Source: a virus
Taxonomy: Duplodnaviria > Heunggongvirae > Uroviricota > Caudoviricetes
Length of the DNA stretch: 33,280 nt
Virus record (IMG/VR): IMGVR_UViG_2700989274_000006
Coordinates: 1 to 33,280 of that record
Direction: 5' to 3' (one strand)
In this document: in pieces, positions 3,104 to 11,712 of the stretch
Numbering within the stretch: position 1 is the first letter of the stretch
Layout: the number at the start of each line of letters is the position of its first letter
Made by a program: the position numbers and the translations under genes
The notes under the pieces: generated by a model
What the model was told of the DNA's origin: nothing
The model's database searches: none
What the model saw: the letters and a program-made list of their open reading frames with translations, nothing else

Positions 3104-3802
3104 ATGAGAGGTAAAATACTACTTTACCACTCAAAGTATCGCTGGCAATCACGCTCTATTTTTGGTTATTTTTTATACAAAATAACATTATTCAGGTATC
3201 AAAAAATAATTTATGACACCGGAGTGCATCAGATGCGTTCATTTTTTTACACCATATGCAGTAGCGAACAGCAAGAAAGCATTACAGATCATCACTCACT
3301 TGCTGAGATATGCCAAAAATTTAATATTCTACCTGAACATGTTGTGATCGAGCAGGTAGATATTAAAGAGGTTGTTTCAGAGCAACGTTTACTCAGACAA
3401 TTGATTCATCATGAAATGAACCGGCAGGACACGCTTGTCATTCCAGATCTAAGCTGTCTTGGCAGAACTGTGGAGGACTTACAGAATATTTTATTTTTTT
3501 GCCTTCAAAAAGAAATGTTTATCTACAGCTACCATCCAGCTTCAAGGATAGAGCCTTCTGCTGAAAGTTGCTTGTCTTTTTTGATTGCTCGTCAGGATAC
3601 GATTGACATTCACAATCTGAAATCAACTAAAAGCCGATATCGACATGTTAAGAAGAAATTAGGACGAAAGGAGGGAAGCAAATACCGACGTGATATCACA
3701 ATACTTAAGAAAGGTGGATTTACTCAGGCTGAGATTGCAAAGAAATTGAGTATCAGTTTATCGACTGTGAAGCGGCACTGGAATAACGGAATCATCGGTT
3801 AA
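3104..3802 (+). CDS. Serine-recombinase (resolvase)-like protein with C-terminal HTH, probably catalytically degenerate
   Basis: Segment YTICSSEQQ ... LVIPDLSCLGR aligns with resolvase YARVSTSQQ ... LVKKLDRLGR but lacks the Arg equivalents (R8 to I, D67-R68 to S-C); C-terminal HTH GFTQAEIAKKLSISLSTVKRH; alternative start at 3233 (MRSFFYT, GGAG upstream). Confidence 0.5.
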   Translation: MRGKILLYHSKYRWQSRSIFGYFLYKITLFRYQKIIYDTGVHQMRSFFYTICSSEQQESITDHHSLAEICQKFNILPEHVVIEQVDIKEVVSEQRLLRQLIHHEMNRQDTLVIPDLSCLGRTVEDLQNILFFCLQKEMFIYSYHPASRIEPSAESCLSFLIARQDTIDIHNLKSTKSRYRHVKKKLGRKEGSKYRRDITILKKGGFTQAEIAKKLSISLSTVKRHWNNGIIG

Positions 3803-4785: not shown

Positions 4786-5577
4786 TCAATTTGGTGTGAT
4801 TTTTCCACTTTCAGTCATGATAGCGATTGCTTCGTCGATAGTCTGTGTTGTAAAGAGCGAGTTTTCCCTACAGTCCTTGCGAATCACCTTCCTGTTTTTT
4901 TGCACAGAAATGTTCTCGCACCAAGCTAATGTTTCGGCGGCATGCTTTTCTTCCATGCTAATGTCCAAAAAAGCGAGGCGGCTATCAAGGGATTGCATAT
5001 CCTCATTGACAATTGAAGGACTGGATTCTAGGAGGTTCAAACGGTTTTCAACATCGGCAACCTTGCCTTTCACCTGTGAGACGTCTTCCACCAATTTTTC
5101 ATGTCTGTGGATAGCATCAGCAAGTGCTCGTGAGTTTTGGGCCAATATTTCAGCCATTTGCGCGAGGGCAGATCCTTTTGCTTCTGGCGGTGGTGGATAT
5201 ACTCCATGTTTAGTCAACGATGGTATGACCTCATGGAATAACCATTTTTGAAAGCGCTTACCAGCCGCGCTTCGGTCACTCGACATAACTCGATACAAAC
5301 CTGGTTGGGTGACGAAGATCTCTTTCTGACCTTCAAAAACACCATTTTCAGCATCTGTAGTAATATACTCATCGGGGTCAAGAGCCTGTAATTGCGCCCT
5401 GATTATTCCAGCCATCGATTTTACTGTGTAATCAGCGTTGATTTCTCTATTTTCTTTATTCAGCGTGATTAAAACATCTCGTAGTGAGATATATAGAATC
5501 TCACCAAGTATCAATGTTCTTAGATCACTTTCACCAGTCTCACCACGGTAACATATCTTGGTCAGGTTACTATTCAT
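4786..5577 (-). CDS. BRO-N domain protein (phage antirepressor-like)
   Basis: 263 aa; N-terminal Bro-N signature QPGLYRVMSSDRSAAGKRFQKWLFHEVIPSLTKHGVY; coiled-coil-like C-terminus; GAGGA 4-5 nt upstream of the ATG. Confidence 0.6.
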   Translation of the reverse strand: MNSNLTKICYRGETGESDLRTLILGEILYISLRDVLITLNKENREINADYTVKSMAGIIRAQLQALDPDEYITTDAENGVFEGQKEIFVTQPGLYRVMSSDRSAAGKRFQKWLFHEVIPSLTKHGVYPPPPEAKGSALAQMAEILAQNSRALADAIHRHEKLVEDVSQVKGKVADVENRLNLLESSPSIVNEDMQSLDSRLAFLDISMEEKHAAETLAWCENISVQKNRKVIRKDCRENSLFTTQTIDEAIAIMTESGKITPN

Positions 5578-5632
5578 TGATCCTCACATCGCAAAGTATA
5601 GGCACATTCAAATCAGTATCTTTTTTCCTGTG

Positions 5633-5665
5633 CTGTTCTGAGGTGAGTATATCACCTCAGAACAG
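5633..5665. repeat. Perfect 14-bp inverted repeat with 5-nt loop
   Basis: ctgttctgaggtga (5633-5646) / gtata / tcacctcagaacag (5652-5665); lies between the 3' end of the methyltransferase-helicase-T5orf172 operon and the BRO-N gene start; no U-tract on either strand. Confidence 0.5.
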
Positions 5666-5691
5666 GTGGCCAAATTCGGTGTGTCACTTCA

Positions 5692-6870
5692 CTATGCCTT
5701 CACCAGTTTCGCAGACATGGGGTCATAAACATACCCAATGATGCTACCATCCTTAATACGTGCAACAGCCTCATCGATAACGAATAACGGAACGAGAAAC
5801 CATTCCTCGGGCTGTACTGGATGGCCGAAACGGTCGTTAATGGTAATGTTAAGCCTTGCGGGTGCAAACAACCTGTGAAACAGGTTTTCCATCCGGGTGC
5901 GGTTGATGCCTGCAAGCTTGTATGAAGCTACTACCTCGACCTTCGCTAACAGATAGGTGGAATCGTGTTCCGCATTGGCAATACGCGCCTCTACTTTGCC
6001 GCCAGTCACTCCAATCTTGTGAATGACATCACGATGTTCAGCTACATAAGGGTTATCAGATAGCGAACGCAACACATAAATGGTGCCACTTTCTAGATCG
6101 CTCTCTTCTAGAGCATCGCTGAATAAAGGCCCCATGTCTGGATCGGTAATTCGGCGTGCTGTTTCGTCTTTATACAAAGCACGAACCAGTGACAGCCGAA
6201 GTAGGTTGCTTTCCGTACCATTCGAGTAAATGACACGCAGTCGAGCATCTTTCTTCCCCTGTGGCGAATCGAACTCTTCACCTTCCTCAGCCACATAAGC
6301 CGTTTGACCATCCAGGATGAACCAATGGCCCACTTCAATCGTTGCATACTGTCCAAAAGGTCGGGTCACTCTTAACCCTGAACTTAGATCACTGCGCACC
6401 TGTTCAAATAGCGGTTTGAATGTATCAAAATCCTCGCACGGCTTGCGATCCGCGATCCCTTGTACAGCACGCTTTTCGGAGCTAGCACGAACATGACGCA
6501 AGACTGTGATATCGTCCTCGCTGGTAACATCCGCCAGTTCGGCAGCCAAATTATCGATATCGATAAATTCGTCCGCTGACTCCGCTCCCTCCCCCCCTCC
6601 GGCCAACAAGCCCTGATGATCCAGCGGCTCTAGCAAGGCACGGCAGTCTGGGAGACTGCGTAGCCGGTCGAGCCGCACTGCATAGAGGCGCTCGAAGATC
6701 TCACGATCTTCGCCGTGTTGCGGCGCACGTCCATGTTGGTCAGCGAAGCGCTGGATTTCCTCAAAACCTGCGATGATGCGTTCCTCGCTGGCTGGACGTC
6801 CTTTTTTCTTCTCCGGTGGTGCAAATTCGGCAAGTTCTGCCGCCAAATCGTCTAAATCAGAATTACTCAT
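5692..6870 (-). CDS. T5orf172 (GIY-YIG-like) domain protein, third gene of the candidate defense operon
   Basis: C-terminal motifs GTIYVLRS, HKIGVTGGKVEARI, MENLFHRLF, EEWF match the T5orf172 family pattern; preferred start at 6870 (MSNSDLDD, GGAGGG 5 nt upstream, 8-nt overlap with the helicase stop); the longest ORF extends to 6936. Confidence 0.6.
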   Translation of the reverse strand: MSNSDLDDLAAELAEFAPPEKKKGRPASEERIIAGFEEIQRFADQHGRAPQHGEDREIFERLYAVRLDRLRSLPDCRALLEPLDHQGLLAGGGEGAESADEFIDIDNLAAELADVTSEDDITVLRHVRASSEKRAVQGIADRKPCEDFDTFKPLFEQVRSDLSSGLRVTRPFGQYATIEVGHWFILDGQTAYVAEEGEEFDSPQGKKDARLRVIYSNGTESNLLRLSLVRALYKDETARRITDPDMGPLFSDALEESDLESGTIYVLRSLSDNPYVAEHRDVIHKIGVTGGKVEARIANAEHDSTYLLAKVEVVASYKLAGINRTRMENLFHRLFAPARLNITINDRFGHPVQPEEWFLVPLFVIDEAVARIKDGSIIGYVYDPMSAKLVKA

Positions 6871-8908
6871 AATGTCCCTCCGCCCTAAAACGCATAAACG
6901 CGGCTGCACCTTCTGCAAGGTGCTTTTCCCAGGCATCCGGCGAAGTTAACGATGGGAGGCGTCCACGTTCACGTTTGAATTCAGCAGCACGCTTGGCGAT
7001 CACTTTGGCATCTTCAGGCGTGATCGAGGTACGCTTGGCCGAGATGGCCGCCGCGACCTGCTTCAAGCTATCTTCGCTCATTGTCTTAGCAAGGATGGCG
7101 TAGGCTTCACCAAAGGGATTGATGCGGTCGATAAGATCTATGTCTAAATCGCGTACGTCCATCGCAAAGCGACGCACTCCGTCAATAAGGGCAGTATTGA
7201 GCGTCCCATCGTTCTCGCCGTTGACAATACGCTTAGCCTGCTGCGTGAGATTAAGGGCGGCAATAGCGTGCTGACGCACAGCCTCCTGATCTTCAGCGCC
7301 AAGTTCAGGGTACTTTTCTTTGATGATCTTCCCCATACGAACCTGTGTTAATTCTTCAGGAATGAGCTCTTCGTCGAACAGTCCACGTTCGATGGCGGGC
7401 TTATCTTGCACAAAAGCCGCGATCACTTCATTTAAATCTTCCTGGCAGATGCGTGCCGCCTCTTTGCTCCTGGGCTCGGCAAGTCCCTTAATCTCGATTT
7501 GATACGTCCCTGTCTGCTCATTAACACCAAAATTGCAGTTATCCGGGTCATACCCTCCTTCACCATAATCAAAACCTGGGGTCGGGCCGCTTTCTGGGTT
7601 CTTAGGCTTGAACTCGAAGCGCGGAGCCAATACTTGCTCCATCAGCAGGCTTGCCGCGATGGCTTTCAAGGTATCGTTGACTGCCTCGGTGACTGCCCCC
7701 TCTACAGCATCCGGCTCGGCGATCAGGTTAGTAAACCTTGCGCGGGTTTTACCCGGCGCGTCGCGAGTGGCGCGACCGATGATCTGCACGATCTCAGTCA
7801 GGCTGGCACGGTAACCAACGGTCAACGCATGTTCGCACCAGATCCAGTCGAAACCTTCCTTCGCCATACCAAGTGCAATAATGATGTCCACATAATCACG
7901 GTCTGTCTTCATTTCTGCAGCACGGAGACTTTCCTGAATCTTGCCTTGGCTGGTTGGGTCCACCAGGTCAGCAATACGTAACACGCGTCCATCGAGGCAT
8001 TTGACTAGCTGAAAACCAGTCACAGGATCCGCTCCTTGCCAATCGCCAAGCTCGCCGAGAATGTGCTCCACCTCTTTGATTTTATCCTTCGTGCTCTCGC
8101 GCGAATTGACGTTGGGAATATGGATAATGGTCTTCTTGTCAGGATCGAGTACATTGAGGATGTCATCGACGTAGGAGCCACTGTAGAAGAAGTAGCCGAT
8201 ATCGAGTTGCTTGAGGTATTCGTAGCCGTTAAGTTGTTCGTAGTAGGTGTAGGTGACGGTATCGAACCTGGACTCATCCTGAGGAGCCAACACGGCCTCC
8301 GCATCACCCCGGAAGTAGGATCCGGTCATGGCAACGATGTGCGTCTTGTCCCGCGCGATAAACTGCCCCAGCTGCTGACCAAGCTTATTATCCGGGTTAG
8401 CTGACACATGGTGGAATTCATCGACCGCGATCAGGCGATCGTCAAACGCTTCTATACCGTAGGCATCGACCGCGAAGCGAAAGGTTGCGTGTGTGCAAAC
8501 AAGCACCTTGTCACTACTTTCAAGAAAAGAGCCAAAAGATCTTACCTTGCCACCGTTGTCGTTACCGGGCGCGTTGCACAGGTTCCACTTAGGTTCGACA
8601 TGCCAATCAGTCCAGAATCCAAACTGCGATAGCGGTTCATCGTTGAAGCTCGCGCCGATAGATTTTTCCGGCACAACGATGATTGCCTGTTTAATCCCTT
8701 GATTTTCGAGTTTGTCGAGTGCGACGAACATCAGAGCACGACTCTTACCGGAGGCGGGCGGCGACTTGATGAGAAGATATTGTTCTCCGCGCTTCTCATA
8801 GGCCCTTTCTTGCATAGGCCGCATCCCAAGAGCATTAGCCTTGGTCGATGCTCCGCTGCGTGAGTAGGTAACGGAAACGGACGGTACTGATTTAATCTTG
8901 TTGCTCAT
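6863..8908 (-). CDS. SF2 DExH-box helicase/translocase (type III restriction Res-like ATPase)
   Basis: 681 aa; Walker A SPPASGKS, motif II VDEFHH, motif III MTGS, motif VI QIIGRATR; ~250 aa C-terminal extension of unknown function; start overlaps the methyltransferase stop (ATGA). Confidence 0.8.
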   Translation of the reverse strand: MSNKIKSVPSVSVTYSRSGASTKANALGMRPMQERAYEKRGEQYLLIKSPPASGKSRALMFVALDKLENQGIKQAIIVVPEKSIGASFNDEPLSQFGFWTDWHVEPKWNLCNAPGNDNGGKVRSFGSFLESSDKVLVCTHATFRFAVDAYGIEAFDDRLIAVDEFHHVSANPDNKLGQQLGQFIARDKTHIVAMTGSYFRGDAEAVLAPQDESRFDTVTYTYYEQLNGYEYLKQLDIGYFFYSGSYVDDILNVLDPDKKTIIHIPNVNSRESTKDKIKEVEHILGELGDWQGADPVTGFQLVKCLDGRVLRIADLVDPTSQGKIQESLRAAEMKTDRDYVDIIIALGMAKEGFDWIWCEHALTVGYRASLTEIVQIIGRATRDAPGKTRARFTNLIAEPDAVEGAVTEAVNDTLKAIAASLLMEQVLAPRFEFKPKNPESGPTPGFDYGEGGYDPDNCNFGVNEQTGTYQIEIKGLAEPRSKEAARICQEDLNEVIAAFVQDKPAIERGLFDEELIPEELTQVRMGKIIKEKYPELGAEDQEAVRQHAIAALNLTQQAKRIVNGENDGTLNTALIDGVRRFAMDVRDLDIDLIDRINPFGEAYAILAKTMSEDSLKQVAAAISAKRTSITPEDAKVIAKRAAEFKRERGRLPSLTSPDAWEKHLAEGAAAFMRFRAEGHYE

Positions 8909-11712
8909 GCATTAGTTCTCACTTTACGCTTCTTGCCTTTGGCCGGTGCAGCAGAAGCGGCCATCTTTATATAAAGATCAAATAGCTTTTCAAGCCGCTC
9001 TGTATCATTCTTAAAGCGACGGCCGATGTAGATGCGCTCCAGTACTTCATCATTGCGATCATGCGCAGCCCGCAGATCAGTAGGCATGTTAGCAGGATCG
9101 TATAGGTCCGCGATGGTCGCGGGAAAATGATGCTCACGCGCCAGAAGTATGTCCTCCGCGCAGCGTGTGAGGTCAGCCTTGTTTTTTTCTGTGAGTTTTG
9201 GTACTGGGAAGGTGTTCCAGCCGAGGGTGTTAGAGTAGCGGTAGCGTGTTTCCAATTTTCCGCAGATGGTGGCGATCCAAACCAGGTGTAGACGAGATGC
9301 AATGAGCGCAAGATTCCAGAGCGGAGCGTCGTAGAGAGCAAAGGCGAGGTTACTGACTACCGAATGATTATCAATCAGTCCAACAGGAAGATACTCGCGC
9401 CCTTCCGATGAAACCCCCGGTAGAATCAGCGTGTGCTTGCCACCGTGATACATTTCGCGAAACTGATGAGCCCGTGATGCTAACTCATTCGTACCAGCAT
9501 CTTTACTTTTGAGCCGCATTTCCCGAACGCCATCAATCCGACCCCGAATAGACGCAATCTCCAAAGCTTGCGGCAATTTTACATCAGGGATCCAGAGGCA
9601 CTTACGTACTACTCCGCGAATAAACTCGGCAGAACCATAGATGCGCCGAAGAAATGTCTCTTCATCCTGCTTGCTCAAACCGAGCGAAACCGCGTCATCC
9701 GCCGATAACAAAAGATTTCCCCCATCGACGGGCATGTTGCCAAAAGACATATCCGGCAGACCCGATATGCTCTTGCGCTGGCCCTCGACTACAACATCCT
9801 CACCAACACTCAGATAGGGCGTGATGTTTGTCGCCTCGCGTACAGTAGTTTGGCCATTGCGGTCCAAGTCGTAAAGTAGCCTTGTCTTACTCACATCCGT
9901 AGATAGGCCGACGATAGCGACTGTTACACCCGCGTTGTGTGCAGCAAGGTTCGTCCATTTGAAGCTGGAGTGCGCGAAGCGAATGTGGGAGCCACATTTG
10001 AAAATTGCTGGCCACAGGATAGGAACAATTCGGCCTTGACAGATAGAGTTGGTGCTAACAAAAGCCGAATCCGTTGGTGTGGCTTGCGCGTAGGCAGCAG
10101 CTTTCATGAACCAACCACCAACATAATCGATTTGTTTAGACGAAATACCATAAGGTTCAAATACCGAAGCCAAATCCGCTTTCTGCTCTTTAGTCTGCGT
10201 TTGGCTACCTTTGTAAGGTGGGTTACCACAGATGTATGTCTCCCCACCTTCGTTCTGAAAGCCAATCTCTGCTTGACCGAGAGGCGTCTCAAAGAGGTTA
10301 TCTGCCTGCAACTTCACGCCAATTCCGGACGGAGGGCAAACGCTCAACCAATCAATCCGCAATGCGTTGCCACATGTAATCCAATTATCATTACGCAGAG
10401 GAAGAAACTCGGCCAGTGCAAGTTTTAGTCCCCGGTACACCACATCGCACTGATACTCAGCAATAACTAGCGCGAGACGGGCAATCTCCGCAGGGAAATC
10501 TCGTATTTCGATCCCGCGAAAGTTGGTAAGAGGGATGTCAGAGGCATTATCCATCTCGCCACGTCGTCGATTAATCTCGGCCTCGATGGCTCGCATTTCC
10601 TTGTACGCAATCACTAAGAAGTTGCCAGATCCACATGCTGGGTCGAATACGCGGATTCGGGCCATACGCTTGCGCAGATTGAGCAGCATGCGCGGATTGT
10701 CACCGGCTTCATCCAGTTTCGCCCGCAGTTCGTCGAGGAATAGTGGGTTAAGCACCTTGAGTATATTGGGGACACTAGTGTAATGCATTCCCAACTCACC
10801 ACGCTCTTCGTCTTCGGTAATGGCCTGAATCATCGAGCCGAATATGTCTGGGTTGATTTTGGTCCAATCCAGATTGCCAACATGTAGAAGATAGGATCGC
10901 GCAATACGGCTGAAGCGCGGTACCTCCTCACTTCCCGAGAAAAGAGCGCCGTTTACATAAGGAAACTCAGCAGCCCAACGCGGGATACCGACAACACTTC
11001 GCTCATCGCGTGGGGTGTTCATTGCACGAAACAACGTGGCGATGACCTCGTGCAAATTAGAAGCGTCGCGCTCACTCATCTGCGCAATAGTGTCAGTAAA
11101 GCGCCCCTTGCCTATAAATATGTCAGTGTCTTCGGCGAAAAAGCAGAAAATTAGACGCGCCATGAACTTGTTCATGTCATGACGACGCCCCGAAGTACCC
11201 CATTCAGGATTGTCTTTTAACAGTTCGACGTACAGGCGGTTCAAACGGCTAGTAGCACGGATGTCAAAGGCGTCTTCGCTGATCTGCCGAACAGTGCTGA
11301 TACCTGCCAATGGCAAAAAGAAGCCGAAGTGATCGGGAAAGTCTTTAAAGGCACAAGCCACAGTCTGACCACTGTTGAGGTCCTCGGCTTCAAAGTATTT
11401 GCCGTCCGTGGCAAGGATGAATTTCGCCTTGGCCTTGCCTGTTGCCGGGCTGGCCTTAAGTGCAGCCAGCATCTGTGTGACTTGGCCCCCTTCACTGGCC
11501 AGAATGTGGATGTTGTTTGTCTGAAGAACACCACCCAAGTCGGACTTATTCGATGCCCCGGCGCGCAGACGTTTGATGGTCGTTTCCTTGTTACCAAAGG
11601 CTTCAAGAAAAGCATAAGGAAACTCTATAGGATCAAAGGGTTGTTCCGCAAGATCCGTGATGGCTTGCTCAATTTCTACGGCGTTCATTTGCGTACAGTT
11701 CTCCATTGGCAT
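8905..11712 (-). CDS. MmeI-family (type IIG/IIL-like, YeeA-like) N6-adenine DNA methyltransferase, apparently without endonuclease motif
   Basis: 935 aa; SAM motif I FDPACGSGNFLV, catalytic motif IV GNPPY; further MmeI-family blocks MARLIFCFFAEDTDIF, LGMHYTSVPNILKVLNPLFLDEL; no PD-(D/E)xK seen in the N-terminal ~120 aa. Confidence 0.85.
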   Translation of the reverse strand: MPMENCTQMNAVEIEQAITDLAEQPFDPIEFPYAFLEAFGNKETTIKRLRAGASNKSDLGGVLQTNNIHILASEGGQVTQMLAALKASPATGKAKAKFILATDGKYFEAEDLNSGQTVACAFKDFPDHFGFFLPLAGISTVRQISEDAFDIRATSRLNRLYVELLKDNPEWGTSGRRHDMNKFMARLIFCFFAEDTDIFIGKGRFTDTIAQMSERDASNLHEVIATLFRAMNTPRDERSVVGIPRWAAEFPYVNGALFSGSEEVPRFSRIARSYLLHVGNLDWTKINPDIFGSMIQAITEDEERGELGMHYTSVPNILKVLNPLFLDELRAKLDEAGDNPRMLLNLRKRMARIRVFDPACGSGNFLVIAYKEMRAIEAEINRRRGEMDNASDIPLTNFRGIEIRDFPAEIARLALVIAEYQCDVVYRGLKLALAEFLPLRNDNWITCGNALRIDWLSVCPPSGIGVKLQADNLFETPLGQAEIGFQNEGGETYICGNPPYKGSQTQTKEQKADLASVFEPYGISSKQIDYVGGWFMKAAAYAQATPTDSAFVSTNSICQGRIVPILWPAIFKCGSHIRFAHSSFKWTNLAAHNAGVTVAIVGLSTDVSKTRLLYDLDRNGQTTVREATNITPYLSVGEDVVVEGQRKSISGLPDMSFGNMPVDGGNLLLSADDAVSLGLSKQDEETFLRRIYGSAEFIRGVVRKCLWIPDVKLPQALEIASIRGRIDGVREMRLKSKDAGTNELASRAHQFREMYHGGKHTLILPGVSSEGREYLPVGLIDNHSVVSNLAFALYDAPLWNLALIASRLHLVWIATICGKLETRYRYSNTLGWNTFPVPKLTEKNKADLTRCAEDILLAREHHFPATIADLYDPANMPTDLRAAHDRNDEVLERIYIGRRFKNDTERLEKLFDLYIKMAASAAPAKGKKRKVRTNA

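What the first reader, a model, noticed from the sequence alone, without database searches (positions are those of the whole stretch)
5633..5665. Perfect 14-bp palindrome between the operon 3' end and the BRO-N gene
ctgttctgaggtga / gtata / tcacctcagaacag is a perfect inverted repeat, too long and exact to be chance in 33 kb. It is not followed by a U-tract on either strand, so it is not a canonical intrinsic terminator. It sits at the left edge of the defense cassette and in the promoter/5' UTR region of the BRO-N gene. It could be an operator for a dimeric regulator, an RNA hairpin, or a scar of the recombination that inserted the cassette.
Basis: seen in the sequence. Interest (0 to 1): 0.4.

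Follow-up and report, generated by a model that had tools for sequence, protein, structure and literature searches.

The report
Leftover end of insertion sequence IS911
The perfect palindrome is real, but it is the leftover 65-bp left end of a common jumping gene (IS911) stuck right after the defence operon's last stop codon, not a dedicated regulatory site, so it is essentially ordinary.

Summary
There is a perfect 14+5+14 inverted repeat at 5633-5665, and only 5 of 1000 shuffles produce one. It is not a free-standing element. Window 5691->5627 (minus strand) is positions 1-65 of an IS911-like IS3-family insertion sequence: the 36-bp left inverted repeat plus the promoter/5'-UTR stem-loop region (57/65 identical, E 6e-18). 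Its TG tip abuts the TAG stop of the GIY-YIG gene, and the transposase genes are gone. IS-free copies of the same cassette run straight from that stop codon into an AAA-ATPase gene, so the remnant marks a rearrangement breakpoint. The imperfect form of the motif sits in front of IS3-family transposase genes in about 87% of E. coli genomes. The perfect form occurs only beside this cassette. All four arm differences from IS911 create base pairs. The 5-nt loop is found in both orientations (49 versus 15 genomes), with at least two independent flips. Both features are signatures of replication template switching at quasipalindromes. A promoter-like site (TTGGCC-16-TGaTATACT) overlaps the hairpin, but the loop flip destroys it, including in two of four strains with an intact BRO-N gene. 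Any residual role as a weak promoter or mRNA hairpin is unproven. Already known kind; low interest.

The parts
5627..5691 (-). Remnant of an IS911-like (IS3 family) left end: IS positions 1-65. This covers the left inverted repeat plus the promoter/5'-UTR stem-loop region. The orfA start and the rest of the IS are missing.
   Evidence: blastn of a full IS911-like element against the window gives IS 1-65 = window 5691-5627, 87.7% identity, E 6e-18, and no other IS911 segment in the window. Alignments A1 and A3 compare it with K-12 IS911A, a pO157 IS3-family element and the pCP301 element annotated 'IS911 ORF1/ORF2'.
5656..5691 (-). The 36-bp terminal inverted repeat (IRL) of the IS remnant, starting with the IS3-family terminal TG (TGAAGTG...) at 5691.
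   Evidence: Alignment to IS911 left ends. The 36-bp length of IS911 IRs comes from PMC2909936.
5633..5646 (.). Palindrome arm 1 (plus-strand CTGTTCTGAGGTGA).
5647..5651 (.). 5-nt loop: GTATA on the plus strand, TATAC on the minus strand. Its orientation is polymorphic among strains.
5652..5665 (.). Palindrome arm 2 (plus-strand TCACCTCAGAACAG). Its outer 10 nt (5656-5665) lie inside the IRL.
5646..5673 (-). Promoter-like site at the position expected for the IS's own weak promoter (pIRL). It has -35 TTGGCC (5673-5668), a 16-nt spacer, TG (5654-5653) and -10 TATACT (5651-5646). The -10 is made of the loop plus the first base of the distal arm.
   Evidence: Consensus scan, 9/12 plus TG. The match is lost in the loop-flipped allele and is below threshold in genuine IS911 (TATGCT). 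No expression data.
5692..6870 (-). GIY-YIG/T5orf172 nuclease gene, the last gene of the MmeI-like/helicase/GIY-YIG cassette. Its TAG stop (5692-5694) directly abuts the IS tip.
   Evidence: Pfam, RefSeq annotation of identical DNA, junction alignment A4.
5578..5626 (-). Native (non-IS) upstream region of the BRO-N gene, including the Shine-Dalgarno GAGGA (5585-5581). The inner junction of the IS remnant is at 5626|5627.
   Evidence: Strain B20159 carries 5563-5626 (95% identical) continuing into unrelated, non-IS sequence.
4786..5577 (-). BRO-N domain gene downstream of the remnant on the same strand as the cassette.
   Evidence: Pfam Bro-N, E 3e-7. RefSeq 'BRO-N domain-containing protein'.

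Best explanation
The palindrome is part of a fossil: the first 65 bp of an IS911-like insertion sequence (IS3 family). The element inserted immediately after the stop codon of the GIY-YIG gene and later lost everything from its orfA start onward. In an intact IS911 this stretch holds three things: the 36-bp left inverted repeat bound by the transposase, the weak resident promoter, and an imperfect stem-loop. That stem-loop has a 7-bp core GAGGTGA/TCACCTC plus an outer CACCTG/CAGGTG helix covering the likely orfA ribosome-binding site (the AGG about 10 nt before the ATG). Here the imperfect repeat has been made perfect (14 bp). The most likely route is replication template switching at a quasipalindrome. 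The same process explains why the 5-nt loop exists in both orientations among strains. The element needs no dedicated function at this locus. It marks the breakpoint that cut the three-gene cassette away from its ancestral downstream AAA-ATPase gene and joined it to the BRO-N gene. Shown: identity, boundaries, distribution, arm changes, loop flips. Inferred: the template-switch origin. Also inferred are any residual effects, namely a weak promoter in one loop orientation or a stable hairpin in read-through mRNA between the GIY-YIG and BRO-N genes.
For: (1) IS positions 1-65 align to window 5691-5627 with 57/65 identity, E 6e-18 (alignments). (2) A 51-nt query around the palindrome hits 4696 of 5426 E. 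coli genomes at about 90% identity. In the loci checked, the hit lies directly in front of IS3-family/IS911 transposase genes, including K-12 IS911A, pO157 and Shigella pCP301 'IS911 ORF1/ORF2'. (3) The outer junction is exact. IS-free cassettes read ...GGCATAG|GACAG... and continue into an AAA-domain gene (E. coli G5, Pseudomonas carbonaria). The window reads ...GGCATAG|TGAAGTG..., and an IS26-truncated form keeps only TGAAG. (4) The inner junction is exact. Strain B20159 has the BRO-N upstream region 5563-5626 without the remnant. (5) The perfect 33-mer occurs in 64 E. coli genomes, the same number that carry the remnant next to the GIY-YIG gene. It also occurs beside that gene on 5 of the 6 closest Klebsiella plasmid hits; the sixth shows no gene in PLSDB's incomplete table but aligns into the gene's 3' end. 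It is absent from 185,579 species-representative genomes. (6) All four arm differences from IS911 (AACA->TTCT, plus A->G at the base) convert mismatches into Watson-Crick pairs, and none breaks a pair. Predicted stability rises from -11.3 to -23.7 kcal/mol over the same span. (7) Loop orientation is 49 as in the window and 15 as the exact reverse complement. Flips occur within otherwise identical haplotypes: H8/DSM103246 versus EC416/CFS3292, and KPNIH27 versus LTGPAF-6F. (8) The literature describes template switching at quasipalindromes in E. coli making them perfect (PMC7202029). It also describes homogenised arms and inverted spacers as outcomes (PMC8604942 abstract).
Against: No intact IS with this exact perfect hairpin was found. 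It therefore cannot be shown whether the perfecting happened before or after the IS was truncated. An unsampled IS911 relative with a natively perfect stem is not excluded. The perfect stem is kept in all 64 remnant-bearing E. coli copies and in the Klebsiella plasmids. That could reflect purifying selection for a function, or simply young age, since the cassette copies are 95-100% identical. No transcript or protein-binding data were available. The IS911 promoter hexamers are assigned here from a consensus scan and from memory of the IS911 literature; the primary papers were not held.
Confidence: 0.85

Rival explanations
1. Domesticated promoter. The fossil IS promoter (TTGGCC-16-TGaTATACT) now drives the BRO-N gene. 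It might be repressed in trans by OrfA/OrfAB made by resident IS911 copies binding the adjacent IRL, much as IS2 OrfA represses its own left-end promoter.
For: This is the only promoter-like site in the intergenic region, and the loop G->A change relative to IS911 improves the -10. The BRO-N gene lost its native upstream DNA beyond 5626. IS2 has a weak extended -10 promoter just inside its IRL, with an OrfA repressor site next to it (PMC3299598). pIRL is described for IS911 (PMC2909936). The closest sequenced genome has two more IS911-like left ends (H31, 3 places).
Against: The loop flip removes the promoter-like match on both strands. It is present in 15 of 64 copies, including two of the four genomes with a full-length BRO-N gene (2013C-4282, EC2641). 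Most copies have BRO-N truncated by later IS insertions yet keep the remnant. No terminator separates BRO-N from the upstream operon, so read-through could express it.
Confidence: 0.2
2. RNA hairpin acting on the operon mRNA. The stem would act as a 3'-end or intercistronic stabiliser against exonucleases, or as a partial U-tract-independent transcription barrier. It would work like REP/BIME hairpins between cistrons.
For: The hairpin is very stable (-23.7 kcal/mol) and sits 26 nt after the stop codon, on the same strand as both flanking genes. The stem is perfect in every remnant-bearing copy even though the loop flips, which leaves the stem unchanged. The IS insertion removed whatever 3' region the cassette originally had.
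Against: There is no U-tract. About 30 E. coli genomes carry the cassette with the remnant deleted by IS26, and others have the IS-free form, so the hairpin is dispensable for keeping the cassette. No known RNA family matches above threshold. All copies are too similar to show covariation.
Confidence: 0.2
3. Operator for a dimeric regulator encoded by the island (AlpA-like, RHH-like or BRO-N protein).
For: The dyad symmetry overlaps a promoter-like site upstream of BRO-N.
Against: The sequence descends from IS911 and travels with the cassette into other islands and onto Klebsiella plasmids that lack the CP4-6-type regulators. There is no second copy of the half-site in the window. 14-bp arms perfected by four clustered changes fit a mutational mechanism better than selection for protein contacts.
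Confidence: 0.03
4. The perfect stem is native to an unsampled IS911 relative and was simply inherited. Under this reading there was no template-switch perfecting at this locus.
For: The left arm is the most variable part of this region among IS911 relatives: CTGAACAG, CTGATTAA, CTGATGAA, CTGAGCAT. The remnant also differs from IS911 outside the arms, at IS positions 8 and 44.
Against: None of the relatives examined has extended pairing. The perfect 33-mer was found nowhere except beside this cassette, in 5426 E. coli genomes, 72,556 plasmids and 185,579 species representatives. Recurrent loop inversion shows that template switching or hairpin-mediated events are active at this very site.
Confidence: 0.2

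Closest known systems
IS911 (IS3 family) left end: IRL, pIRL promoter region and 5'-UTR stem-loop
   Same: It has the terminal TG. It is 57/65 identical over IS positions 1-65. It carries the same TTGGCC...GAGGTGATAT.CTCACCTC core and sits in the same position relative to where orfA would start.
   Different: It is truncated after position 65, so there is no orfA/orfB, no right end and no target duplication. The stem is a perfect 14 bp rather than a 7-bp core with mismatched flanks. The outer CACCTG/CAGGTG helix over the likely orfA ribosome-binding site is lost.
IS2 left-end promoter (extended -10 PIRL) with adjacent OrfA repressor site
   Same: A weak extended -10 promoter lies just inside or next to the left inverted repeat of an IS3-family element (PMC3299598). 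The window has TGaTATACT in the equivalent place.
   Different: IS2 is a different element with a different sequence. No binding or transcription data exist for this remnant.
Quasipalindrome template-switch mutation hotspots (E. coli thyA, lacZ QP reporters)
   Same: An imperfect inverted repeat has become perfect through clustered, templated changes, and the spacer is inverted (PMC7202029, PMC8604942). Here there are four pair-creating changes and a loop found in both orientations.
   Different: Here the mechanism is inferred from natural variation among genomes. It was not observed experimentally, and the ancestral state is inferred from IS911 relatives.
Translation-signal-sequestering hairpins at IS left ends (IS10, IS3)
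   Same: The native IS911 fold predicted here pairs CACCUG with CAGGUG, covering the AGG about 10 nt upstream of the orfA AUG (the likely ribosome-binding site; no site was mapped). The resident promoter's -10 lies between the arms, so only read-through transcripts would contain both arms. Sequestration of this kind is reported for IS10 and IS3 (PMC13181058).
   Different: In the window the gene that would be controlled (orfA) is gone. The BRO-N ribosome-binding site (5581-5585) lies 47 nt beyond the stem and is not paired with it.
REP/BIME-type extragenic palindromes
   Same: It is a stable hairpin without a U-tract, located between co-oriented genes.
   Different: It is not an independent dispersed repeat. 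The dispersed copies are all ends of IS911-type elements, and the perfect version is single-copy per genome.

Membership tests
IS911 / IS3-family insertion sequence (left end) | Terminal inverted repeat beginning 5'-TG and matching the 36-bp IS911 IRL | tested here: met
   TGAAGTGACACACCGAATTTGGCCACCTGTTCTGAG versus IS911 TGAAGTGGCACACTGAATTTGGCCACCTGAACAGAG. 65-nt match at E 6e-18. IR length from PMC2909936.
IS911 / IS3-family insertion sequence (left end) | Followed by orfA/orfB transposase genes with programmed -1 frameshift | tested here: not met
   Homology stops at IS position 65, and no other IS911 segment is in the window. It is therefore a remnant, not a functional IS.
IS911 / IS3-family insertion sequence (left end) | Matching right inverted repeat and 3-4 bp target-site duplication | tested here: not met
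   There is no IRR in the window. The inner boundary 5626|5627 is a deletion or fusion junction.
IS911 / IS3-family insertion sequence (left end) | Same sequence found at the 5' side of IS3-family transposase genes elsewhere | tested here: met
   4696 of 5426 E. coli genomes have a match. The hits examined lie directly upstream of IS3-family / 'IS911 ORF1' genes.
Rho-independent (intrinsic) terminator | GC-rich stem-loop immediately followed by a U-tract | tested here: not met
   The stem is present but there is no T run on either strand, and the scan does not call it.
Dispersed extragenic palindrome (REP/BIME-like) | Many independent intergenic copies per genome not tied to a mobile-element gene | tested here: not met
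   The perfect form has 1 place per genome in 64 genomes. The imperfect copies checked are ends of IS911-type elements.
Transcription-factor operator | Specific binding by a regulator; usually further copies or conservation tied to the regulator gene | not testable with these tools
   Only indirect evidence is available. There is no second half-site in the window, and the remnant travels without the island's regulators.
Sigma-70 promoter (IS resident promoter pIRL) | -35/-10 hexamers with correct spacing, and a mapped transcription start | tested here: inconclusive
   The hexamers match 9/12 plus TG in the window allele. The match is absent in the flipped allele and below threshold in genuine IS911. 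No transcription start data.
Quasipalindrome template-switch product | Clustered changes that make arms complementary, and/or spacer inversion, relative to the ancestral imperfect repeat | tested here: met
   4 of 4 arm differences from IS911 create pairs. The loop is the exact reverse complement in 15 of 64 genomes, with flips within identical haplotypes. The mechanism itself is inferred.

The most novel reading that the evidence does not exclude
The fossil IS promoter has its -10 element in the hairpin loop. Recombinase-independent inversion of that 5-nt loop would switch the promoter-like site off, or re-aim its TGnTATACT to the opposite strand, antisense to the GIY-YIG gene. This would be a minimal, hairpin-driven phase-variable promoter controlling BRO-N or cassette expression. 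The 49:15 orientation split and repeated independent flips would then reflect switching rather than neutral mutation.
Probability: 0.04. Interest if true: 0.6.

Novelty: already known. Interest (0 to 1): 0.13.

Why it matters
For annotation, the 'regulatory palindrome' next to this defence cassette should be labelled as an IS911-family left-end remnant. It also marks where the MmeI-like/helicase/GIY-YIG cassette was cut away from the AAA-ATPase gene that follows it in IS-free relatives. The system in this window is therefore a truncated derivative, which is relevant to anyone testing its defence activity. As a side benefit, the locus is a clean natural example of quasipalindrome perfecting and recurrent loop inversion in E. 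coli and Klebsiella populations. Nothing here opens a long-standing question.

Tried and rejected
(1) Rfam scan of 5300-6000 at E<=1 gave only sub-threshold generic hairpin or miRNA models (best 21.7 bits against a gathering score of 32). No known RNA family matches.

(2) An exact-pattern scan of 185,579 species-representative genomes for the perfect palindrome with any loop gave 0 hits, so no source IS was found.

(3) tblastn of the BRO-N protein and blastn of the 65-bp remnant against 80 loci from other genera that carry the GIY-YIG gene found neither. The BRO-N/IS association is specific to the enterobacterial copy.

(4) MAFFT suggested that IS homology continues past 5627 through an 11-nt deletion (AAAAAAGA...). 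I rejected this because strain B20159 shows that 5563-5626 is native BRO-N upstream DNA.

(5) PADLOC gave no model for the BRO-N or GIY-YIG proteins. It identified only the type IIG enzyme, with a weak PbeA-like hit for the helicase.

(6) I looked for the primary IS911 promoter papers (PMC125674, PMC1169952) and the Mahillon & Chandler review (PMC98933). None is held, so the pIRL hexamer assignment rests on the consensus scan and my recollection.

(7) I considered a bidirectional terminator because of the T-run on the plus strand before the stem. I rejected it because the T-run precedes the stem on the plus strand, and on the minus strand the stem is followed by an A-run.

(8) The first shuffle script timed out. 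It was rerun with a faster implementation.

Full report
**Observation.** The window has a perfect inverted repeat at exactly the stated place: CTGTTCTGAGGTGA (5633-5646), loop GTATA (5647-5651), TCACCTCAGAACAG (5652-5665). It is the longest perfect inverted repeat in the window. Only 5 of 1000 dinucleotide-preserving shuffles of the window contained any perfect 14-bp inverted repeat with a loop of 60 nt or less. As RNA it folds to -23.7 kcal/mol. Neither strand has a U-tract after the stem, and the terminator scan does not call it.

**Gene context.** Both flanking genes are on the minus strand.
- The GIY-YIG/T5orf172 gene (5692-6870) is the last gene of a cassette that also holds an MmeI-like type IIG enzyme (8905-11712) and a DEAD-box helicase (6863-8908). 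It ends 26 nt before the stem.
- The BRO-N gene (4786-5577) starts 55 nt after the stem.
- The surrounding island is a CP4-6-type element (intF, yagN, ykgV, yagM, yagL, yagK) of E. coli.
- PADLOC recognises only the type IIG enzyme.

**What it is.** A 51-nt query centred on the palindrome matched 4696 of 5426 complete E. coli genomes at about 90% identity. The median was 2 places per genome and the maximum 24, on chromosomes and plasmids. In the hits I opened, the match lies immediately 5' of an IS3-family transposase gene.
- These include K-12 IS911A (insN, interrupted by IS30), ECONIH1 and pO157.
- They also include the element annotated 'IS911 ORF1/ORF2' on Shigella flexneri pCP301.
- Several more diverged relatives show the same arrangement.

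Alignments show that the minus strand of window 5691->5627 is the left end of this element. The window reads TGAAGTGACACACCGAATTTGGCCACCTGTTCTGAGGTGATATACTCACCTCAGAACAGCACAGG. IS911 reads TGAAGTGGCACACTGAATTTGGCCACCTGAACAGAGGTGATATGCTCACCTCAGAACAACACAGG. blastn of a whole IS911-like element against the window gives IS positions 1-65 = 5691-5627, 57/65 identical, E 6e-18, and no other piece of the IS anywhere in the 33 kb. IS911 has 36-bp terminal inverted repeats and a resident promoter, pIRL, at its left end (PMC2909936). The remnant therefore comprises the whole IRL (5691-5656) plus 29 bp of promoter/5'-UTR. It stops 7 nt before the orfA ATG.

**Boundaries.** Both junctions can be fixed to the base.
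- *Outer junction, 5691|5692.* The TG tip of the IS directly follows the TAG stop of the GIY-YIG gene.
  - In E. coli G5 and two similar genomes, homology to the window stops exactly at 5692. The sequence reads ...GGTGAAGGCATAG|GACAG... and continues to a large AAA-domain gene on the same strand.
  - The same TAG|GACAG junction is seen in Pseudomonas carbonaria and many other proteobacteria. There it is followed by a short ORF and an 876-aa AAA_13 ATPase gene.
  - In roughly 30 other E. coli genomes, IS26 has inserted five bases into the remnant (...TAG|TGAAG|GGCACTGTTGCAAA). In the one opened (Santai) it brings catB3/blaOXA-1/aac(6')-Ib-cr.
- *Inner junction, 5626|5627.* Strain B20159 carries 5563-5626 (95% identical) continuing into unrelated non-IS DNA. 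So 5578-5626 is the native BRO-N leader, not decayed IS sequence.
- None of 80 loci from other genera holding the GIY-YIG gene (70-93% protein identity) has the IS end or a BRO-N gene nearby.

The IS remnant therefore marks the breakpoint at which the three-gene cassette was severed from its ancestral downstream gene(s) and joined to BRO-N. The joined unit then spread. All 64 E. coli genomes that keep the remnant, and the Klebsiella plasmid copies I aligned, retain at least the first 20-100 nt of BRO-N before later IS insertions truncate it.

**Why the palindrome is perfect.** Genuine IS911 and all relatives examined have only a 7-bp perfect core (GAGGTGA/TCACCTC) flanked by mismatches. ViennaRNA predicts for IS911 that core plus an outer CACCUG/CAGGUG helix covering the AGG about 10 nt upstream of the orfA AUG, the likely ribosome-binding site (-15.8 kcal/mol). 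That is the layout expected if read-through transcripts are to be kept untranslated, as reported for IS10 and IS3 (PMC13181058). This last step is an inference for IS911.

The window differs from IS911 in the arms at exactly four positions: AACA->TTCT in the proximal arm and A->G at the base of the distal arm. Each change converts a mismatch into a Watson-Crick pair, and none disrupts one. The perfect 33-mer is found only next to this cassette.
- It is in 64 E. coli genomes, the same number that carry the remnant beside the GIY-YIG gene.
- It lies beside that gene on 5 of the 6 closest Klebsiella plasmid hits. The sixth shows no gene in PLSDB's incomplete table but aligns into the gene's 3' end.
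- It is absent from 185,579 species-representative genomes.

The 5-nt loop occurs in both orientations: 49 genomes as in the window and 15 with the exact reverse complement. Flips occur within otherwise identical haplotypes, namely H8/DSM103246 versus EC416/CFS3292 and plasmid KPNIH27 versus LTGPAF-6F. They also occur in the divergent EC2641. This implies at least two, and probably three or more, independent events. Arm homogenisation and spacer inversion are the two documented outcomes of polymerase template switching at imperfect inverted repeats. Such quasipalindromes are known mutation hotspots in E. coli (PMC7202029, PMC8604942, PMC5941160). I therefore infer that the 'too perfect' stem is a mutational product of an already quasi-palindromic IS end. 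An unsampled IS911 relative with a natively perfect stem is not excluded.

**Does it do anything here?** A consensus scan finds one promoter-like site in the intergenic region, on the gene strand. It reads TTGGCC (5673-5668), 16 nt, TGaTATACT (-10 at 5651-5646). The -10 is the loop plus one arm base, so a transcript from it would start inside the distal arm. This is where an IS3-family resident promoter is expected. IS2 has a weak extended -10 PIRL just inside its IRL with an OrfA repressor site next to it (PMC3299598), and pIRL is drawn at the IS911 left end (PMC2909936).

Several observations argue against strong selection on this promoter.
- The same site in genuine IS911 (TATGCT) falls below the scan threshold.
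- The loop-flipped allele loses the match on both strands.
- Two of the four genomes with an intact BRO-N gene carry the flipped loop.
- Most copies have BRO-N truncated anyway.

No terminator separates BRO-N from the operon, so read-through is a sufficient source of BRO-N mRNA. In such a transcript the hairpin could act as an intercistronic stabiliser. But the cassette also persists in about 30 genomes without the remnant and in the IS-free form, so it is dispensable. An island-encoded dimeric regulator is unlikely. The half-site does not recur in the window, and the remnant travels to other islands and to Klebsiella plasmids without those regulators. If any protein binds, the best candidates are OrfA/OrfAB of resident IS911 copies. 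The closest sequenced genome has two more IS911-like left ends.

**Comparison with known systems, and verdict.** The feature is a member of a thoroughly known kind, the left end of IS911 (IS3 family). It meets the sequence-defined criteria for that family but fails those that define a functional IS: it has no transposase genes, no right end and no target duplication. It is not an intrinsic terminator or a REP-type element, and Rfam has nothing for it.

Its 'recombination scar' option is essentially right and its operator idea is not supported. Its own refutation criterion, a dispersed repetitive element, is largely met. What is mildly noteworthy is the clean natural record of quasipalindrome perfecting and recurrent loop inversion. 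It is also worth noting that the defence cassette in this window is a truncated derivative of a larger system. Novelty: already known. Interest: low (about 0.13).

The most novel reading not excluded is that loop inversion acts as a recombinase-free on/off switch for the fossil promoter. I give it about 4%.

Noticed in passing
window 5647-5651; L009, L011, L099-L102: The 5-nt hairpin loop exists as exact reverse complements in different strains: 49 E. coli genomes as in the window and 15 flipped. Flips occur within otherwise identical haplotypes and on Klebsiella plasmids, so inversion is recurrent.
   Followed up: yes
window 5692 (junction); L104 1-3000; L029 5186-8084: IS-free copies of the cassette (E. 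coli G5, Pseudomonas carbonaria and many other proteobacteria) continue after the GIY-YIG stop into a short ORF and/or a large AAA-family ATPase gene (AAA_13, 876 aa in L029). The three-gene cassette in this window therefore looks like a truncated form of a larger system.
   Followed up: partly
L029 873-1907: In P. carbonaria an extra 344-aa ORF with no Pfam match sits between the MmeI-like gene and the helicase gene. The window has no counterpart; there the two genes overlap at 8905-8908.
   Followed up: no
window 5687; L103 1-3005: In roughly 30 E. coli genomes homology to the window stops five bases inside the IS911 remnant. In the one opened (Santai) an IS26 sits there, placing catB3, blaOXA-1 and aac(6')-Ib-cr directly beside the defence cassette.
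   Followed up: partly
window ~5479-5482 and 5563; L002, L003, L105: A second IS911-like element, itself interrupted by a group II intron (ltrA), abuts the BRO-N gene via its right end. This occurs at 5479-5482 in many genomes and at 5563 in strain B20159. IS911-type elements have hit this small region repeatedly.
   Followed up: partly
window ~5525 (inside the BRO-N 5' region); L007, L008, L100-L102: A 9-nt unit (minus-strand GGTGAAAGT) is present in 1, 2 or 3 tandem copies in different strains. It is a small in-frame copy-number polymorphism in the BRO-N N-terminus or its remnant.
   Followed up: no
L019-L098: The GIY-YIG protein is 70-93% identical across 80 species of Gamma- and Betaproteobacteria (Pluralibacter, Kosakonia, Alcaligenes, Thauera, Xanthomonas, Halomonas and others). 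That is unusually high conservation and implies recent, wide horizontal spread of the cassette.
   Followed up: no
window 5678: Among the copies aligned, only the window has C where the other cassette copies and IS911 itself have T. By my own reconstruction from the IS ends, this position falls in the IRL hexamer CACACT that would supply the -10 of the circle-junction promoter in intact IS911.
   Followed up: no
window 3104-3802 vs L001 5392-7403: The closest complete genome (CFSAN051542) has an IS3-family element inserted in the yagL-like recombinase/sigma-like gene. That gene is intact in the window, so the window comes from a related but different strain.
   Followed up: no
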